A stretch of DNA of 35,777 bases from a virus (lineage: Duplodnaviria; Heunggongvirae; Uroviricota; Caudoviricetes): IMG/VR virus record IMGVR_UViG_2778261389_000005, positions 1 to 35,777 of that record, one strand, 5' to 3'. Below the pieces are notes generated by a model. It saw only the letters and a program-made list of their open reading frames with translations, did no database searches and was not told where the DNA came from. Both the position numbers and the translations under genes were made by a program. Below, piece after piece: positions 5,502 to 25,149 of this stretch. How positions within the stretch are numbered: the first letter of the stretch is position 1; every line of letters starts with the position of its first letter.

Positions 5502-5641
5502 GTGAGATCCTCATTTTTGGGTGTTAGAATCCCCGGACCATTGATAGCGCCCATTGGGTTAACTTTGGTTTTAATGTTGTTTCCGGTGTAACTTTGGTCG
5601 GTGAGGCCGGACATGGCGGGCCCACTTCGGTGGGCTTTCGC

Positions 5642-19089: not shown

Positions 19090-19143
19090 TCATGTAAATC
19101 TGATATCGTCGCCATAGCTTCGTAGGTCGACAAAGAATTAAGA

Positions 19144-19174
19144 GCCTCGCCATCGTGCGGGGCTTTTTTATTTG
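19144..19174 (+). terminator. Rho-independent terminator (tR'-like)
   Basis: GCCTCGC-CATCGT-GCGGGGC hairpin followed by TTTTTTATTTG. Confidence 0.55.
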
Positions 19175-21018: not shown

Positions 21019-21071
21019 GTCAACTTTATGAGCAAACTGATCTTAATTACTGTAACTAGGTGGTCAATGAT

Positions 21072-21710
21072 ATGGCAACGCTTAAGGACCTTTCCAGTCA
21101 GTTAAGACAGCTGCAGAAGCAAATACCGTTTGCGACTGCCCAGGCTATGACTAAAGTGGTTCGCCAGATAGAAGCGGCCCAAAAAACAGCATTTGAGCGG
21201 AATCTGGATAATCCAACACCTTTTACAGTTAAATCGGTTGGGTCAGTTGGTGCCAGGAAAAACAGCCTTCGTGCGAAGGTGTTTGTTCGTGATACTGCTG
21301 CTGGTTACCTTGAACCCTTCGAGTTCGGCGGAGAGCACAAGCTTAATGGTAGTGCTTTGCTTAACCCGAAAGACATAAAGCTTAATAAATACGGCAACCT
21401 GCCGCGTAATAAGCTCTCTCAGCTCAAAGCAAAGGAAAATGTATTCGTAGGTGAGGTGGATGGCGTTAACGCTGTCTGGCAGCGTAAGAAACCGATGAAA
21501 GCTAAGAAGCGACGGGCCAAGCGCTCCGCTAATGGGACGCGAAGACCGAAACGTAAACAGCGTTCTCCAAAGCTTTTGATCCGGTTTGGTGATGCGCTAC
21601 CTGTGACTCCAGTGCTGGGGTATATGGATAGGGCCCGTACCATGGCGAACGCACTGCTACCGTCTGCTTTAAATCAGGCGATAGCAGAAGCCATCAGGAC
21701 GGCAAAATAA
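21072..21710 (+). CDS. Hypothetical protein with highly basic segment
   Basis: 212 aa from ATG 21072 (AGGTGG RBS); KKPMKAKKRRAKRSANGTRRPKRKQRSPK stretch. Confidence 0.45.
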   Translation: MATLKDLSSQLRQLQKQIPFATAQAMTKVVRQIEAAQKTAFERNLDNPTPFTVKSVGSVGARKNSLRAKVFVRDTAAGYLEPFEFGGEHKLNGSALLNPKDIKLNKYGNLPRNKLSQLKAKENVFVGEVDGVNAVWQRKKPMKAKKRRAKRSANGTRRPKRKQRSPKLLIRFGDALPVTPVLGYMDRARTMANALLPSALNQAIAEAIRTAK

Positions 21711-21720
21711 AAGCAGTAAC

Positions 21721-22224
21721 TTATAAGTTAATTTCGCAAGCTTTTATGAAGCTGTTTACTGCAGTTGTCGATCCAGAAACATTGGCTGACATGGAATGCT
21801 GGTTTCCGCCATCCTTTGTTTGCACACCAACTAACACTTTGGATTTCGCCCCCTGAAGCTGCTTAAGCACTGTTTTTAGTTGGTCCGCGTCATCCGATTG
21901 AATCTGGAGGCTCTGAACATTACGTCTTGAAAGGGTAGCATCGAGCTTCACTGCGGTATTCCCGTCGACCTTCATTATCAGGTCCATTGGTACCTCTGAT
22001 AGTGATTCGGTGCTTTTATCCATTTCAACGTATGCCGCCGATAGCTTTTCTTTAGTGCAGTCAAACACAATGGCGCCATTGTCGGATGAAACCTCGCCAA
22101 GCATCATTGCTTTCTTACCACCAGAGAAAAGGTCATCTTCAGTATTAGTTACCCACTGGGCATGAGCAATTGGTGATGCCAGCACTGCGGCTACGAAAGT
22201 TATTTTGATTATATTGTTACCCAT
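21721..22224 (-). CDS. Secreted protein of unknown function (signal peptide), opposite-strand accessory gene
   Basis: 167 aa from ATG 22224 with AAGGAG RBS; N-terminus MGNNIIKITFVAAVLASPIAHA-Q resembles a Sec signal peptide. Confidence 0.55.
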   Translation of the reverse strand: MGNNIIKITFVAAVLASPIAHAQWVTNTEDDLFSGGKKAMMLGEVSSDNGAIVFDCTKEKLSAAYVEMDKSTESLSEVPMDLIMKVDGNTAVKLDATLSRRNVQSLQIQSDDADQLKTVLKQLQGAKSKVLVGVQTKDGGNQHSMSANVSGSTTAVNSFIKACEINL

Positions 22225-22367
22225 TACATTCTCCTTGTATTGAATAGGAATAATCATAGTCGGAGCGAATGGTCGAAGCCATTAAAAAAATGGGTCCTTC
22301 CTGAGACTTTTGTAAGGTACGGGCATTGCGCGCCGCGGTGTTTTCCTAGCTACAACTTTCAGATTTG

Positions 22368-22515
22368 TGTCCCATGTCCCACCTCTGGCGATCATTACGG
22401 ACACCTCGCCAGCTCTGGCTATTCCAGTTTATTCCAGTGGGACATTCTGGTGGGACATGGCAAAAATGTCCCAGGCGAATGTCCCACCCCAGAAAATGTC
22501 CCAGGTGATGTCCCA
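22368..22515. repeat. Array of TGTCCCA / TGGGACA repeats upstream of the small terminase gene (cosB-like candidate)
   Basis: Direct copies at 22368, 22375, 22467, 22480, 22497, 22509 and inverted copies at 22438, 22451; last copy overlaps the start codon. Confidence 0.5.
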
Positions 22516-23084
22516 TGACCACGATGAACCAGAGTCAGTACGCACAACATTCAGGTGTGGATCGCAAAACAATTGGTCGGTGGATTAAAGCCGGGCGCTT
22601 CATTGTGATGGACGGAGACCTGATTGACGTAGAGGCCAGCGATGCGGCATTGAAGAAAAACCGCGATGGCAAAGACCCGCGCGCCTCGAACGCGAAGAAA
22701 AAGAAAACTCCCGTCGTTAGCGATAACGATGATGACGGTGATGAAATCAATAAAACTGTCCGCCAGATAATGCTCACTGAAGGAGCAGATCTTTCGAGAG
22801 AGGAAGCGGGACGTATCCGCGAGAATTACATGGCCCTGCAGGCAAAGCTGCAGTATGAAAAAGACAGCGGCCAGCTTATTGAGCTGACAGCAGCCGAGGA
22901 GGTTTTATTCAACGCCTTTCGCCAACAGCGTGATGCCTGGCTTAACTGGCCGTCCAGGGTGGCGCCGCTAATGGCTGCTGATCTGGATGTACCGGCGGAC
23001 AGGATGACAGAGGTGCTGATTGAACATGTCCACAAACACATCTCAGTCCTCGGAGAGCCAGAGTTTAACCCGGCAGAAGATTGA
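22515..23084 (+). CDS. Terminase small subunit (Nu1-like, HTH)
   Basis: N-terminal HTH (QYAQHSGVDRKTIGRWIKAG); position immediately upstream of large terminase. Confidence 0.6.
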   Translation: MTTMNQSQYAQHSGVDRKTIGRWIKAGRFIVMDGDLIDVEASDAALKKNRDGKDPRASNAKKKKTPVVSDNDDDGDEINKTVRQIMLTEGADLSREEAGRIRENYMALQAKLQYEKDSGQLIELTAAEEVLFNAFRQQRDAWLNWPSRVAPLMAADLDVPADRMTEVLIEHVHKHISVLGEPEFNPAED

Positions 23085-25149
23085 GCGTCTTGAATTAAGC
23101 GTCCGCAAAGGCTGGACACCCCCGCCGCGTATCAGTGTGCCGCAGTGGGCAGATGACTATCGTAAGCTGGCAAAAGAGGCTGGGAGCACTTCGGGAAACT
23201 GGGAAACATCGACGGTAGAAATTGCCCGCGGACCGATGCTTGCCGCGACGGAGTCCGGGGTTCATATCATCACTGTAATGTGCTGTACCCAGTTGATGAA
23301 GACAGCACTGCTGGAAAACCTTTTTGGCTATTTTGCCCACCTCGATCCTTGTCCGATACTGCTGCTGCAGCCGAAAGAAGAAGCCGCTGAACAGTTTTCG
23401 AAAGAGCGTATTAGCCCGCTGGTAAGGGTGACGCCGGTACTGCGTAAAATCATCGGTGATTCGAAACAGAAAAGCTCGAAAGAAACCATTCTTTACAAGG
23501 CATTCACTGGCGGATTTCTGGCGCTGGCGGGTGCTGGTAGCCCTGATAACCTTGCGCGTCGTCCGATTCGTGTCCTGCTGGCGGATGAAGTGGACAAGTA
23601 CCCGATAACCCGCGAAGGCGATCCAATTGCGCTGGCCGAAGAGCGTACAGCGACATTTGGCCTGACCTGGCTGTCTGTACGCGCCTGTTCGCCGACGGTG
23701 GAGGATGAGAGCCGCATTGCTGACAGCTACGCCGACTCCGATCAGCGCCGGGCATCTGTGGTTTGCCCGCACTGTGGCCACCGCCAGTTCCCCGACTTTT
23801 TCAAACACGTTCAGTGGCCGAAAGAGGGAGATAAACACCTGACTAAATCGGCGATGCTCTATTGCGAATGCTGTGGTAGTGGCTGGTCCGAAGGACAGCG
23901 CCTCAGAGCTCTGCACACTATTCGATGGCATCAGACGCGCCCATTTGAGTGCTGCGGGGAGCGGCACTCACCGCTGATGGATTATGACCTTGCCTGGCGG
24001 GCGGCAGACGAGGGCAGCGTTGAAAAGGTCTGGCAATGGTCAGAGTCGGAACGGCATGCGGTCTATCGCGCAATCTGCCCCTCCTGTGGAAAGGAGGCAG
24101 TCGATAACCACCACGCGGGGTACCAGGCATCCAAGCTTTTCAGCCCCTGGCAAAAAGATAAGCCGTCGGATATTGCGAAAAAATATATCGATGCGAAGGG
24201 CGATCCGGATAAGGAACAGGCGTGGTGGAATACCCAGATGGGGCTTCCGCACCGACCTAATCATGGGAAACAGCTCCCTGTTGATGTTCTGCTGGCGCGC
24301 CGGGAAATATTTCCGGCCGTCGTTCCGGACGGGGTGGCATTGTTAACAGCTGGAGTTGATACCCAGGACGATCGCTTCGAAATTACGATCACCGGCTGGG
24401 GGAGAGATGAAGAATCGTGGTCGGTCGCGCATGACGTTATTTATGGTGACCTTGAGACGGAAGAACCCTGGAAGCGACTGGATGCATACCTGAAACAGAT
24501 CTGGCGACGTGGTGACGGGCGCGGCCTGAATATCATGGCAACGTGCATGGACTCCGGTGGCCACCATACGCAGAAGGTATACGAATTCGCCAAAGAGCGT
24601 CTTGGCCGTCGTGTCTGGGCAATTAAGGGGGAGTCTGCACAGGGAGGTAAACGCAATCCTGTCTGGCCGACCAAACGACCATCATCGAAAAGCAAAGCCA
24701 GTTTCCGCCCTGTCATTCTGGGGGTTAACTCAGCGAAAGACGTGATACGCGGTCGCCTGCATCTTGAGCCACCCAAACCTGGCGCCGCCGCTGCGGGTTA
24801 TATGCATTTTCCTGACGATCGCGATCTCGGGTACTTCAATCAGCTGCTGGCGGAGCGACTGGTTTACAAAGTCATTTCCGGGCAGCGGTACAGTATCTGG
24901 GAAGCAATACCAGGACGAGCTAACGAAGCGCTTGACTGCCTCGTTTACAGCTATGCCGCGCTGTGCGGTCTCAAACATATGGGGTTAAAACTCAACGTCC
25001 GGGCCGCCAACCTCGAAGCCGATCCGGATAAGTTCCTGCCAGCGCCAGTTGGACAGGAAGAAAAAATCAATTACGAGCTGCCGGGTGCGGTTATTGAAGA
25101 ACCAGCGCCGGTCAAACGTAAGCGAATATCGCAACTCCTGCCGAAATAA
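23020..25149 (+). CDS. Terminase large subunit (lambda gpA family)
   Basis: 709 aa; colinear motifs with lambda gpA including ATPase region and C-terminal NEALDC; start overlaps small subunit gene. Confidence 0.9.
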   Translation: MNMSTNTSQSSESQSLTRQKIERLELSVRKGWTPPPRISVPQWADDYRKLAKEAGSTSGNWETSTVEIARGPMLAATESGVHIITVMCCTQLMKTALLENLFGYFAHLDPCPILLLQPKEEAAEQFSKERISPLVRVTPVLRKIIGDSKQKSSKETILYKAFTGGFLALAGAGSPDNLARRPIRVLLADEVDKYPITREGDPIALAEERTATFGLTWLSVRACSPTVEDESRIADSYADSDQRRASVVCPHCGHRQFPDFFKHVQWPKEGDKHLTKSAMLYCECCGSGWSEGQRLRALHTIRWHQTRPFECCGERHSPLMDYDLAWRAADEGSVEKVWQWSESERHAVYRAICPSCGKEAVDNHHAGYQASKLFSPWQKDKPSDIAKKYIDAKGDPDKEQAWWNTQMGLPHRPNHGKQLPVDVLLARREIFPAVVPDGVALLTAGVDTQDDRFEITITGWGRDEESWSVAHDVIYGDLETEEPWKRLDAYLKQIWRRGDGRGLNIMATCMDSGGHHTQKVYEFAKERLGRRVWAIKGESAQGGKRNPVWPTKRPSSKSKASFRPVILGVNSAKDVIRGRLHLEPPKPGAAAAGYMHFPDDRDLGYFNQLLAERLVYKVISGQRYSIWEAIPGRANEALDCLVYSYAALCGLKHMGLKLNVRAANLEADPDKFLPAPVGQEEKINYELPGAVIEEPAPVKRKRISQLLPK

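What the first reader, a model, noticed from the sequence alone, without database searches (positions are those of the whole stretch)
22258..22520. Dense array of TGTCCCA/TGGGACA repeats upstream of the small terminase gene
At least six direct and two inverted copies of a 7-8 bp motif occur within 150 bp, the last overlapping the terminase small-subunit start codon. This resembles cosB-type binding sites for the HTH small subunit, and the DNA packaging cut site (cosN) is probably nearby. A regulatory operator for the adjacent opposite-strand secreted-protein gene is an alternative.
Basis: seen in the sequence. Interest (0 to 1): 0.55.

Follow-up and report, generated by a model that had tools for sequence, protein, structure and literature searches.

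The report
Terminase docking repeats beside cos site
The eight TGTCCCA repeats are very probably the docking sites (cosB) where this prophage's small terminase subunit recognises its own DNA and positions the cut at a lambda-like cos site 34 bp upstream; this is a familiar kind of element in an undescribed, repeat-rich and swappable form.

Summary
Eight perfect TGTCCCA copies (six direct, two inverted) lie in 22368-22515, against 0.017 expected by chance, and the last one overlaps the terS ATG.

- Thirty-four bp upstream, at 22323-22334, sits GCATTGCGCGCC. This is identical to the experimentally mapped 12-nt cohesive end of Serratia phage BZS1.
- That 12-mer is preceded by lambda's cosQ heptamer GGGTCCT at the lambda distance.
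- Measured from cosN, the copies lie at +46> +53> | +116< +129< | +145> +158> +175> +187>, with the terS ATG at +193. This matches lambda's R3(+54) / inverted R2(+114) / R1(+156) / Nu1 ATG(+191).
- Across about 210 loci that share this cosQ-cosN block, the heptamer differs (TGTCCCA, GGTAACA, TTCACAC, TGTCCGCA and others). It changes strictly together with the TerS recognition helix, not with the TerS C-terminus or with neighbouring genes.
- Against one relative, homology breaks exactly around the array plus the terS 5' part (22360-22890).
- The opposite-strand gene is a lineage-specific insertion, so the operator alternative fails.

Binding itself and this prophage's virion ends remain untested.

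Verdict: a new variant of lambda-type cosB. Moderate interest.

The parts
22292..22298 (+). cosQ-like heptamer GGGTCCT. The conserved block is GGGTCCTTCC, 22292-22301.
   Evidence: It is identical to the heptamer at the same distance (about -30) from the lambda cohesive end. It is invariant in all related loci. The homology shared with other prophages starts here.
22323..22334 (.). cosN: the predicted 12-nt 5' cohesive end, GCATTGCGCGCC. The nick positions are uncertain by 1 nt.
   Evidence: It is identical to the annotated cosL of phage BZS1, which was mapped by PhageTerm plus PCR (PMC7556043). The alignment with lambda would place the nicks 1 nt to the left, giving GGCATTGCGCGC.
22335..22367 (+). 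Conserved cosN-proximal spacer (CGCGGTGTTTTCCTAGCTACAACTTTCAGATTTG) of fixed length between cosN and the first repeat.
   Evidence: It is 73-93% identical even to prophages of another heptamer class. It aligns with lambda CGCGGGTTTTCGCTA.... It contains a one-mismatch IHF-like match at 22353-22365 on the - strand, which is at chance level.
22368..22381 (+). Proximal doublet: two abutting TGTCCCA copies at +46 and +53 from cosN. This is the R3 equivalent.
   Evidence: The position is invariant (+45 to +49) in every heptamer class. The lambda R3 core lies at +54.
22382..22437 (.). 56-bp spacer between the proximal and distal repeats. Its sequence is not conserved. It includes a TATTCCAGT x2 direct repeat at 22420-22438.
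   Evidence: No IHF consensus was found in it.
22438..22457 (-). Two inverted TGTCCCA copies (22438-22444 and 22451-22457; +116 and +129). This is the R2 equivalent.
   Evidence: The lambda R2 core is inverted and lies at +114. The same inverted pair occurs in GGTAACA-class loci.
22467..22515 (+). Four direct TGTCCCA copies (22467, 22480, 22497, 22509; +145, +158, +175, +187). These are the R1 equivalent. The last copy overlaps the terS ATG and the third abuts the Shine-Dalgarno sequence.
   Evidence: The copies are conserved while the flanks between them diverge.
22515..23084 (+). terS, the small terminase subunit (189 aa). Residues 1-50 form a winged-HTH DNA-binding domain, with the putative recognition helix DRKTIGRWIKAG at residues 16-27. 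Residues 51-92 are a disordered linker, and the C-terminal part is helical.
22360..22890 (+). Exchangeable specificity cassette: the cosB array plus terS codons 1 to about 125.
   Evidence: Against the GGTAACA-class prophage L007, identity is 73-93% in 22281-22359, 23-65% in 22360-22890 (mostly 25-55%), and 75-98% from 22892 on (mostly 80-98%). The TerS C-termini of GGTAACA-type proteins are nearly identical to the window's.
23020..25149 (+). terL, a gpA-type large terminase. The RefSeq start corresponds to 23026.
   Evidence: Pfam GpA_ATPase 2.8e-64 and GpA_nuclease 2.2e-78. RefSeq annotation of an identical prophage.

Best explanation
The array is the cosB subsite of a lambda-type cos site. 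On replicated concatemers, the winged-HTH N-terminal domains of the small terminase (TerS, 22515-23084) bind the TGTCCCA heptamers.

The proximal doublet sits at a fixed distance (+46/+53) from cosN. It anchors the TerS-TerL holoenzyme so that the gpA-type TerL nuclease makes staggered nicks at 22323-22334, producing 12-nt 5' cohesive ends.

The inverted pair and the four direct copies (+116 to +193) are the counterpart of lambda R2 and R1. They would stabilise a bent or wrapped nucleoprotein complex that stays on the terS-side end, docks on the portal and starts packaging rightwards (terS, terL, portal...).

cosQ (22292-22298) together with cosN serves termination at the next cos.

The heptamer sequence and the TerS recognition helix form the packaging-specificity pair, and they are inherited and exchanged as one cassette (22360-22890).

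Shown here: the repeats, their statistics, cosN/cosQ identity with a mapped phage end and with lambda, the lambda-like geometry, the co-variation, the mosaic boundaries, and the TerS DNA-binding-domain fold.

Inferred: physical binding, the nick positions in this prophage, bending or wrapping, and the roles of individual copies.
For: (1) Eight perfect copies in 148 bp against 0.017 expected.

(2) The 12-mer at 22323-22334 equals the mapped cohesive end of phage BZS1. GGGTCCT and the cosN flanks align with lambda.

(3) Geometry. The copies lie at +46> +53> +116< +129< +145> +158> +175> +187>, with the terS ATG at +193. In lambda the GTTTCC cores lie at +54>, +114< and +156>, with the Nu1 ATG at +191. 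Published lambda cosB is R3-I1-R2-R1 with R2 inverted, and the cosN-R3 distance is critical (PMC4669245; PMC9026076).

(4) Co-variation. In 120 viral and 92 genome loci with the same cosQ-cosN block, the heptamer in register at +46 differs and tracks the TerS helix:
- TGTCCCA with [DN]RKT[IV]xRW[IVM]K
- GGTAACA with SRKTVTxWKxRG
- TTCACAC with SRRSFYNWES
- TTGACAC with SRQALYNWE
- TGTCCGCA with CDEKQVRR
- TGTTCGCA with CSDxLVRR
. HTH identity to the window is 60-100% within the class and 36-52% in the GGTAACA class. C-terminal identity overlaps completely between the two (10-100% versus 11-98%).

(6) The mosaic breakpoints enclose only the array and the terS 5' part.

(7) Phylogenetic footprint. 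Among diverged TGTCCCA-class loci the heptamers are kept while the spacers and flanks diverge.

(8) BZS1 itself, which has mapped ends, carries 9 GGTAACA copies in its first 303 bp and none in the next 2.7 kb.

(9) A 17.5-kb integrase/primase element without terS or capsid genes keeps a 259-bp cosQ-cosN-TGTCCCA-array segment. It is 97% identical to a phage contig and ends at the terS ribosome-binding site.

(10) TerS is PHROG 57. The N-terminal domain of the model matches solved TerS DNA-binding domains best of 48,164 chains.
Against: - There is no direct binding or virion-end data for this prophage.
- TerS has no Pfam Nu1 match. Its profile similarity to lambda Nu1 is weak: hhalign E 0.0043, probability 8%. 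Foldseek hits are all E >= 0.4.
- No IHF consensus lies in the spacer where lambda has I1.
- The two proximal copies abut at 7-bp spacing, which is awkward for two HTH domains side by side.
- The lambda alignment and the BZS1 end disagree by 1 nt on the nick position.
- The element that keeps the array without terS has a second cos block and pseudogene fragments nearby. Its TGTCCCA cos could therefore be a phage remnant rather than a working satellite site.
- The distal copies overlap the terS Shine-Dalgarno sequence and ATG, so an added regulatory role cannot be excluded.
Confidence: 0.85

Rival explanations
1. The repeats are mainly a regulatory operator for terS and the late operon. TerS or another phage regulator would bind them to throttle transcription read-through or terS expression, and packaging recognition would lie elsewhere.
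For: The last two copies overlap or abut the terS Shine-Dalgarno sequence and ATG. The <<>> quartet is palindromic like an operator and is predicted to form a stable hairpin, z = -3.7.
Against: - No sigma-70-like promoter or terminator is found in 21600-22700.
- The proximal doublet keeps a fixed distance to cosN, not to terS. In BZS1-type phages the terS ATG is at +75 and the distal copies lie inside the gene.
- One lineage (L058) has the last copy about 30 bp away from its terS start.
- An element without terS keeps the array next to cosN.
Confidence: 0.06
2. The repeats are an operator or promoter region for the divergent, opposite-strand secreted-protein gene (21721-22257).
For: The array lies in the intergenic region upstream of that gene's start.
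Against: - The gene is a lineage-specific insertion. Relatives with the same array (L004, L005) or the same cos block (L007) lack it, and homology starts at 22291.
- The nearest repeat is 110 bp from the gene start, with cosQ and cosN in between.
- The heptamer co-varies with TerS, not with upstream genes.
Confidence: 0.02
3. The repeats are bound by a different DNA-binding protein, for example as replication iterons, a partition or centromere-like site, or sites for a host factor.
For: Arrays of short direct and inverted repeats are typical of iterons and centromeres. The fold hits of the TerS N-terminal domain also include RacA, BldC and Xis.
Against: - The only coding sequence that is swapped together with the array is the terS 5' part.
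- The upstream p72-like gene stays about 70% identical across heptamer classes.
- Replication genes are more than 8 kb away.
- The array position is locked to cosN in all classes.
Confidence: 0.03
4. This is a chance or low-complexity repeat with no function.
For: None beyond the shortness of the motif.
Against: The enrichment is about 470-fold, and none of 100 shuffles reaches the window total. The motif is conserved across diverged prophages in many genera while its flanks diverge.
Confidence: 0.01

Closest known systems
Phage lambda cos (cosQ-cosN-cosB with R3-I1-R2-R1) and gpNu1
   Same: - The cosQ heptamer GGGTCCT is the same and lies at the same distance.
- The cohesive end is a 12-nt 5' overhang, and the cosN flanks are homologous.
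- TerS sites lie at about +50 (direct), about +115 (inverted) and +145 to +190 (direct), and the TerS ATG is at +191/+193.
- TerL is gpA-type, followed by gpW and a lambda-family portal.
- TerS has a winged-HTH N-terminus.
(PMC4669245, PMC9026076)
   Different: - The cohesive-end sequence is GCATTGCGCGCC rather than GGGCGGCGACCT.
- There are eight perfect 7-8-bp copies grouped 2+2+4 rather than three roughly 16-bp R elements.
- No IHF consensus lies between the R3 and R2 equivalents.
- TerS is not matched by Pfam Nu1, and its profile similarity to Nu1 is only weak.
Lambda versus phage 21 packaging specificity (chimeric TerS hybrids)
   Same: cosQ and cosN are identical while the cosB repeats and the TerS recognition helix differ. 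Specificity resides in a segment of about 600 bp comprising cosB plus the 5' end of terS, and the TerS C-terminus is matched to TerL (PMC4669245). The natural mosaic 22360-22890 has the same boundaries.
   Different: Here at least 12 heptamer classes share one cosQ-cosN block across three classes of Proteobacteria. The cited paper itself compares three packaging specificities (lambda, 21 and N15).
Phage N15 'simple' cosB with rR2 inside the TerS gene
   Same: BZS1/phiNP-type relatives of this cos family have the proximal site just before the terS ATG (+75). Their first distal copy is inverted, at about +217, inside terS. This matches N15's R3 plus an inverted rR2 about 200 bp away within the TerS gene (PMC4669245).
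   Different: The window itself has the 'complex', fully intergenic form. In the BZS1 type five further direct copies follow the inverted one and are translated as a (Gly-Asn-Lys)n linker.
Serratia phage vB_SspM_BZS1 and Citrobacter phage phiNP cos regions
   Same: The cosQ-cosN block and the mapped 12-nt end are the same. The gene order is the same: p72-like gene, cos, terS, terL, gpW, portal.
   Different: The heptamer is GGTAACA. TerS is 33% identical. The authors reported the cohesive end but no TerS-binding repeats.
Gram-negative PICI cos sites and Rpp redirection
   Different: The published PICIs have no repeated R-like sequences and use Rpp. The satellite-like elements seen here either carry a copy of a phage-type heptamer array or carry their own TerS with a private array.
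Phage P1 pac site (clusters of TGATCA/G hexamers); SPP1 pac boxes
   Same: Several short repeated elements in two clusters recognised by the packaging enzyme (from my own knowledge, not tested here).
   Different: Those are headful systems cut between or near the clusters, without cohesive ends. Here TerL is gpA-type and a relative has mapped cohesive ends.

Membership tests
lambda-type cos site (cosQ-cosN-cosB) | A cosN nicking site giving 12-nt 5' cohesive ends | tested here: met
   22323-22334 is identical to the PhageTerm/PCR-mapped end of BZS1, and its flanks align with lambda cosN. This rests on homology only; the virion ends of this prophage were not measured, and the nick position is uncertain by 1 nt.
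lambda-type cos site (cosQ-cosN-cosB) | A cosQ heptamer about 30 bp upstream of cosN | tested here: met
   GGGTCCT at 22292-22298 (-31). The same heptamer lies at -30 in lambda. It is invariant in about 210 loci, but this follows from the construction of the search pattern.
lambda-type cos site (cosQ-cosN-cosB) | Repeated TerS-binding elements to the right of cosN, the first at a fixed distance and the middle one inverted (R3 > R2 < R1 >) | tested here: met
   +46> +53> | +116< +129< | +145> +158> +175> +187>, compared with lambda cores at +54>, +114< and +156>. The first site lies at +45 to +49 in all classes.
lambda-type cos site (cosQ-cosN-cosB) | An IHF site (I1) between R3 and R2 | tested here: not met
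   No WATCARNNNNTTR match with one mismatch or fewer lies in 22382-22437. This is a consensus-level test only. N15-type cosB also lacks I1 (PMC4669245), so the feature is not universal.
lambda-type cos site (cosQ-cosN-cosB) | The repeat sequence co-varies with the TerS recognition helix (the specificity pair, as in lambda versus 21) | tested here: met
.
lambda-type cos site (cosQ-cosN-cosB) | TerS physically binds the repeats, and this binding is needed for accurate cosN nicking | not testable with these tools
   This requires EMSA or footprinting and packaging assays.
lambda-type cos site (cosQ-cosN-cosB) | An adjacent gpA-type large terminase | tested here: met
   Pfam GpA_ATPase 2.8e-64 and GpA_nuclease 2.2e-78.
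gpNu1 small-terminase family (Pfam Phage_Nu1) | A match to the family HMM | tested here: not met
   No Pfam family at E <= 0.01. PHROG 57 'terminase small subunit' matches instead, at 4.6e-36.
gpNu1 small-terminase family (Pfam Phage_Nu1) | Sequence-profile homology to lambda Nu1 | tested here: inconclusive
   hhalign aligns residues 4-61 with Nu1 residues 3-61 at 28% identity, E 0.0043, but with probability only 8%.
gpNu1 small-terminase family (Pfam Phage_Nu1) | An N-terminal winged-HTH DNA-binding domain | tested here: met
gpNu1 small-terminase family (Pfam Phage_Nu1) | A separable C-terminal domain matched to TerL | tested here: met
   GGTAACA-type TerS proteins (P0091, P0099, P0114) share a near-identical C-terminal half with the window's TerS. 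DNA identity resumes at 22892 and continues into terL. The TerL binding itself is inferred.
Operator of the divergent gene 21721-22257 | The repeats are inherited with, and positioned relative to, the regulated gene | tested here: not met
   The gene is absent from loci that keep the array.
Headful pac site (P1/SPP1 type) | A headful-type terminase, with no unique cohesive ends | tested here: not met
   TerL is gpA-type, and the relative BZS1 has defined 12-nt cohesive ends.

The most novel reading that the evidence does not exclude
The TGTCCCA array plus the TerS N-terminal domain is one allele of a large, freely exchangeable packaging-specificity cassette system. At least 12 heptamer/recognition-helix alleles (general form nGTnnCA, in register at +46) sit on one nearly invariant cosQ-cosN block in phages of Alpha-, Beta- and Gammaproteobacteria. 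Phage satellites would exploit the system in two ways: by copying a helper's array without terS, or by carrying their own TerS and array pair while relying on the helper's TerL. If so, the array sequence would define packaging-incompatibility groups and predict helper-satellite pairings. The natural allele series would also give a readable recognition code for this winged-HTH domain.
Probability: 0.45. Interest if true: 0.6.

Novelty: new variant of a known kind. Interest (0 to 1): 0.42.

Why it matters
- It gives a function to a gene that the RefSeq and other source records examined here name 'hypothetical protein' (the small terminase). It also locates the cos site of a widespread family of enterobacterial prophages with lambda-like heads and contractile tails.
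- It lets prophage ends, and hence transducing potential, be predicted from sequence alone.
- It extends the lambda/21/N15 packaging-specificity paradigm to a much larger natural allele series, in which short perfect heptamers make the DNA side of the code unusually easy to read.
- The same series points to satellites that share cosQ and cosN but differ in cosB. This bears on how phage-inducible islands hijack cos phages.
- For cosmid-like vector or phage engineering, the 530-bp cassette suggests orthogonal packaging signals that use the same TerL.

Tried and rejected
- Megablast of 21700-23100 against 50,697 phage records found no match. Relatives had to be reached through the TerS protein and through the cos pattern.
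- A sequence search of TerS against the PDB gave only spurious repeat-driven RecA-fusion hits.
- hhalign against lambda Nu1 was weak, so membership of the Nu1 family is not claimed.
- An IHF consensus scan found nothing in the spacer and only a chance-level match near cosN.
- A promoter and terminator scan of 21600-22700 found none.
- Rfam found no RNA family in the region.
- The spurious ORFs across the array (for example 22240-22518, 92 aa) are explained by the repeats themselves.
- Iterons, a centromere and an operator of the divergent gene were considered and rejected (see the rival explanations).
- The terS-less element carrying a TGTCCCA array was first read as a clean satellite 'deletion experiment'. 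This was downgraded after a second cos block and pseudogene fragments were found in it.
- A full-text search for the heptamers together with terminase or cos found no paper describing them.

Full report
OBSERVATION

The intergenic region 22258-22514 contains eight perfect TGTCCCA heptamers. Six are on the + strand (22368, 22375, 22467, 22480, 22497, 22509) and two on the - strand (22438, 22451). The other 35.6 kb of the window holds only two copies. Shuffles give 4.09 +/- 1.82 copies per window, and none of 100 reached 10. That rate gives 0.017 copies per 148 bp, so eight is about 1e-19 by Poisson (hand calculation). No degenerate one-mismatch copies occur in or near the array. Seven of the eight copies are preceded by A. 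The last copy ends on the A of the terS ATG, and the seventh abuts the AGGTGA Shine-Dalgarno sequence. Copies 3-6 form a 22-nt imperfect palindrome.

CONTEXT

The ORF 22515-23084 (189 aa) has no Pfam hit, but it matches PHROG 57 'terminase small subunit' at E 4.6e-36. It is followed by a gpA-type large terminase (GpA_ATPase 2.8e-64, GpA_nuclease 2.2e-78), gpW and a lambda-family portal. The window runs from an integrase (1-1194) through recET-like genes, lysis genes, this packaging module and head genes to a 500-aa ORF and a partial 642-aa ORF. From their size and position, and by analogy with the myovirus BZS1, I take these last two to be tail sheath and tape measure; this was not tested. The window is an E. 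coli prophage. The 1.4-kb region is at least 99% identical in 34 complete E. coli genomes, where terS is annotated 'hypothetical protein'. No phage record matches at the DNA level.

THE CUT SITE

The nearest phages by TerS protein (33% identity) are Serratia phage vB_SspM_BZS1 and Citrobacter phage phiNP. The linear BZS1 record begins with an annotated 12-nt left cohesive end, GCATTGCGCGCC, and terS starts at base 75. The authors obtained that end with PhageTerm and confirmed the joined cos in the lysogen by PCR and sequencing (PMC7556043). The same 12-mer is at window 22323-22334.

Aligning lambda's joined ends with the window shows homologous flanks. The cosQ heptamer GGGTCCT lies at -30/-31. 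AGGTTACG matches AAGGTACG immediately left of the end. CGCGGGTTTTCGCTA matches CGCGGTGTTTTCCTA immediately to the right. The lambda alignment would put the nicks 1 nt to the left of the BZS1 end, so I give cosN as 22323-22334 +/- 1.

GEOMETRY

[quoted passage not shown] In lambda the GTTTCC cores of R3, R2 and R1 are at +54 (direct), +114 (inverted) and +156 (direct), and the Nu1 ATG is at +191. Published work describes lambda-type 'complex' cosB as R3-I1-R2-R1 with R2 inverted. It places the TerS contacts of R3 at bp 55-63. It also shows that even a 3-bp change in the cosN-R3 distance is severely deleterious (PMC4669245; PMC9026076). The array is thus superimposable on lambda cosB, with each R element replaced by two, two and four heptamers.

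COMPARATIVE TEST

I searched for the cosQ-cosN block (GGGTCCTTCC N14-24 GGGCATTGCGCG). It was also found in 92 contigs of species-representative genomes from Enterobacterales, Burkholderiales, Neisseriales, Xanthomonadales and Alphaproteobacteria.

Most of these loci carry a multiply repeated heptamer in the 330 bp after cosN, but its sequence differs between loci. A minority (for example L028, L134 and L136) show no clearly repeated 7-mer. Read in register at +46, the heptamers found are TGTCCCA, GGTAACA, CGTTACA, TGTCCGCA, TGTTCGCA, TGTTTGCA, TTCACAC, TTGACAC, GGTAACG, GGTTAACA and others. Each class has its own TerS recognition-helix signature:

- TGTCCCA with [DN]RKT[IV]xRW[IVM]K
- GGTAACA with SRKTVTxWKxRG
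- TTCACAC with SRRSFYNWES
- TTGACAC with SRQALYNWE
- TGTCCGCA with CDEKQVRR
- TGTTCGCA with CSDxLVRR

. No discordant case appeared among the classes with clear repeats.

HTH identity to the window's TerS is 60-100% inside the TGTCCCA class and 36-52% in the GGTAACA class. Identity of the C-terminal 60 residues overlaps fully between the two (10-100% versus 11-98%). Klebsiella and Raoultella proteins with a GGTAACA-type N-terminus have a C-terminal half almost identical to the window's.

At the DNA level, the window compared with a GGTAACA-class E. coli prophage (L007) is:

- 73-93% identical over 22281-22359 (cosQ, cosN and spacer);
- 23-65% identical over 22360-22890, mostly 25-55% (the array plus terS codons 1 to about 125);
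- 75-98% identical from 22892 into terL, mostly 80-98%.

This is the natural equivalent of the lambda/21 and lambda/N15 hybrids, in which roughly 600 bp (cosB plus the terS 5' end) carries packaging specificity (PMC4669245).

Within the TGTCCCA class, diverged loci from Morganella, Hafnia, Yersinia, Ewingella and others keep the proximal doublet, the inverted copy or copies and the direct copies. The spacer and the inter-copy flanks diverge.

TerS STRUCTURE

ALTERNATIVES

The opposite-strand gene 21721-22257 (signal-peptide-like N-terminus, PHROG 19473) is absent from relatives that keep the array or the cos block, and homology starts at 22291. The array is not its operator.

A purely regulatory role for terS is unlikely for three reasons. 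The array is locked to cosN rather than to terS. In BZS1-type phages the terS ATG is at +75 and the distal copies lie inside the gene. No promoter or terminator consensus is present. An additional autoregulatory effect of the copies over the Shine-Dalgarno sequence and ATG cannot be excluded.

Binding by some other protein is disfavoured, because only the terS 5' part is co-swapped with the array.

WHAT REMAINS OPEN

- No IHF consensus lies in the 56-bp spacer, and that spacer is not conserved. It is unclear what bends the DNA, if anything does.
- The abutting 7-bp doublet is sterically puzzling for two HTH domains.
- Two geometries exist: a distal cluster at +116 with terS at +193, and a distal cluster at +217 with terS at +75.
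- Binding and virion ends are untested.

COMPARISON AND NOVELTY

In function and architecture this is a lambda-type cosB. It differs in four ways: the cohesive-end sequence; the use of many perfect heptamers (2+2+4) instead of three 16-bp R elements; a TerS outside the Nu1 Pfam family; and the absence of a recognisable I1 site. The BZS1 paper reported the end but not the repeats. A full-text search found no paper linking these heptamers to terminase. I rate it a new variant of a known kind, of moderate interest. The larger point is the allele series of at least 12 cosB/TerS cassettes on a single cosQ-cosN block, and its apparent use by satellites (see the items noticed in passing).

Noticed in passing
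window 21721-22257 (- strand): A 178-aa protein with a signal-peptide-like N-terminus (PHROG 19473, unknown function). Its gene is inserted between the conserved p72-like gene and cos. It is absent from related prophages, so it looks like a moron or cargo gene.
   Followed up: partly
window 21060-21710 (+): A homologue of BZS1 p72 (PHROG 1924, 'minor tail protein'). It lies immediately upstream of cos in the window and in each relative whose upstream region was examined (BZS1, phiNP, L005, L007). A 3' fragment of it even survives next to cos in satellite-like elements. The BZS1 authors also remarked on this conserved position. Its function is unknown.
   Followed up: partly
L001 (phage BZS1) 246-303; also L002, L011, L018 and others: In phages where terS starts at +75, the five to eight distal GGTAACA repeats (12-nt spacing) lie inside terS. 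They are translated as a Gly-Asn-Lys/Arg repeat in the TerS linker. The protein's own binding sites are thus written into its coding sequence.
   Followed up: partly
L133 (E. coli VG1046-3E9, next to hpt); L053, L135, L155, L157, L158, L191, L200, L223: Loci of the TTCACAC and TTGACAC heptamer classes have their own terS. None has a terL downstream (0 of 5 loci with at least 2.5 kb of downstream sequence available). In L133 the context is a small primase/SSB/Icd element with no structural genes. These are probably cos-type phage satellites that bring their own TerS and cosB pair.
   Followed up: partly
L132/L226 (E. coli 2015C-4136CT1, thiM-rcnR, about 17.5 kb): An integrase/primase/SSB/PerC element without terminase or capsid genes carries two cos blocks. 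One has a TGTCCCA array that is 97% identical over 259 bp to phage contig L092 and ends at the terS ribosome-binding site. The other, 5 kb away, has TTTACAC repeats followed by a small non-TerS ORF. Whether this is one satellite, two, or a satellite plus a phage remnant is unresolved.
   Followed up: partly
loci L134-L225: The cosQ-cosN block, including the exact first 10 bases of the 12-nt end, is shared by prophages of Alpha-, Beta- and Gammaproteobacteria (Acidocella, Rhizomicrobium, Paraburkholderia, Variovorax, Chromobacterium, Dyella, Xenorhabdus, Yersinia and others). This is unusually broad conservation for a cohesive end.
   Followed up: no
window 19093-19166 (+) and 5543-5640 (+): Rfam matches above the gathering threshold. 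One is to the Salmonella island sRNA isrJ (68.7 bits), just upstream of the holin gene. The other is to isrB (38.2 bits).
   Followed up: no
window 22437-22487: The two inverted copies and the first two direct copies form a 22-nt imperfect palindrome with a 7-nt centre. Folded as a single strand, the array is more stable than its shuffles (z = -3.7). The same <<>> arrangement recurs in GGTAACA-class loci.
   Followed up: partly
L131 (E. coli KFu022, kch-yciI): In this strain the same prophage is decayed. RecE and Q are truncated and fused, and IS1 and IS3 insertions follow the head genes. The cos-terS-terL-portal segment is nevertheless kept at 98.8% identity.
   Followed up: no
window 22515-23084 and homologues P0002-P0120: This small terminase is named 'hypothetical protein' or 'uncharacterised protein' in nearly every named NCBI or UniRef entry among the 120 homologues listed. 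One UniRef entry calls it 'Terminase small subunit'. None has a precomputed Pfam domain. This is an annotation gap for a widespread enterobacterial prophage family.
   Followed up: yes
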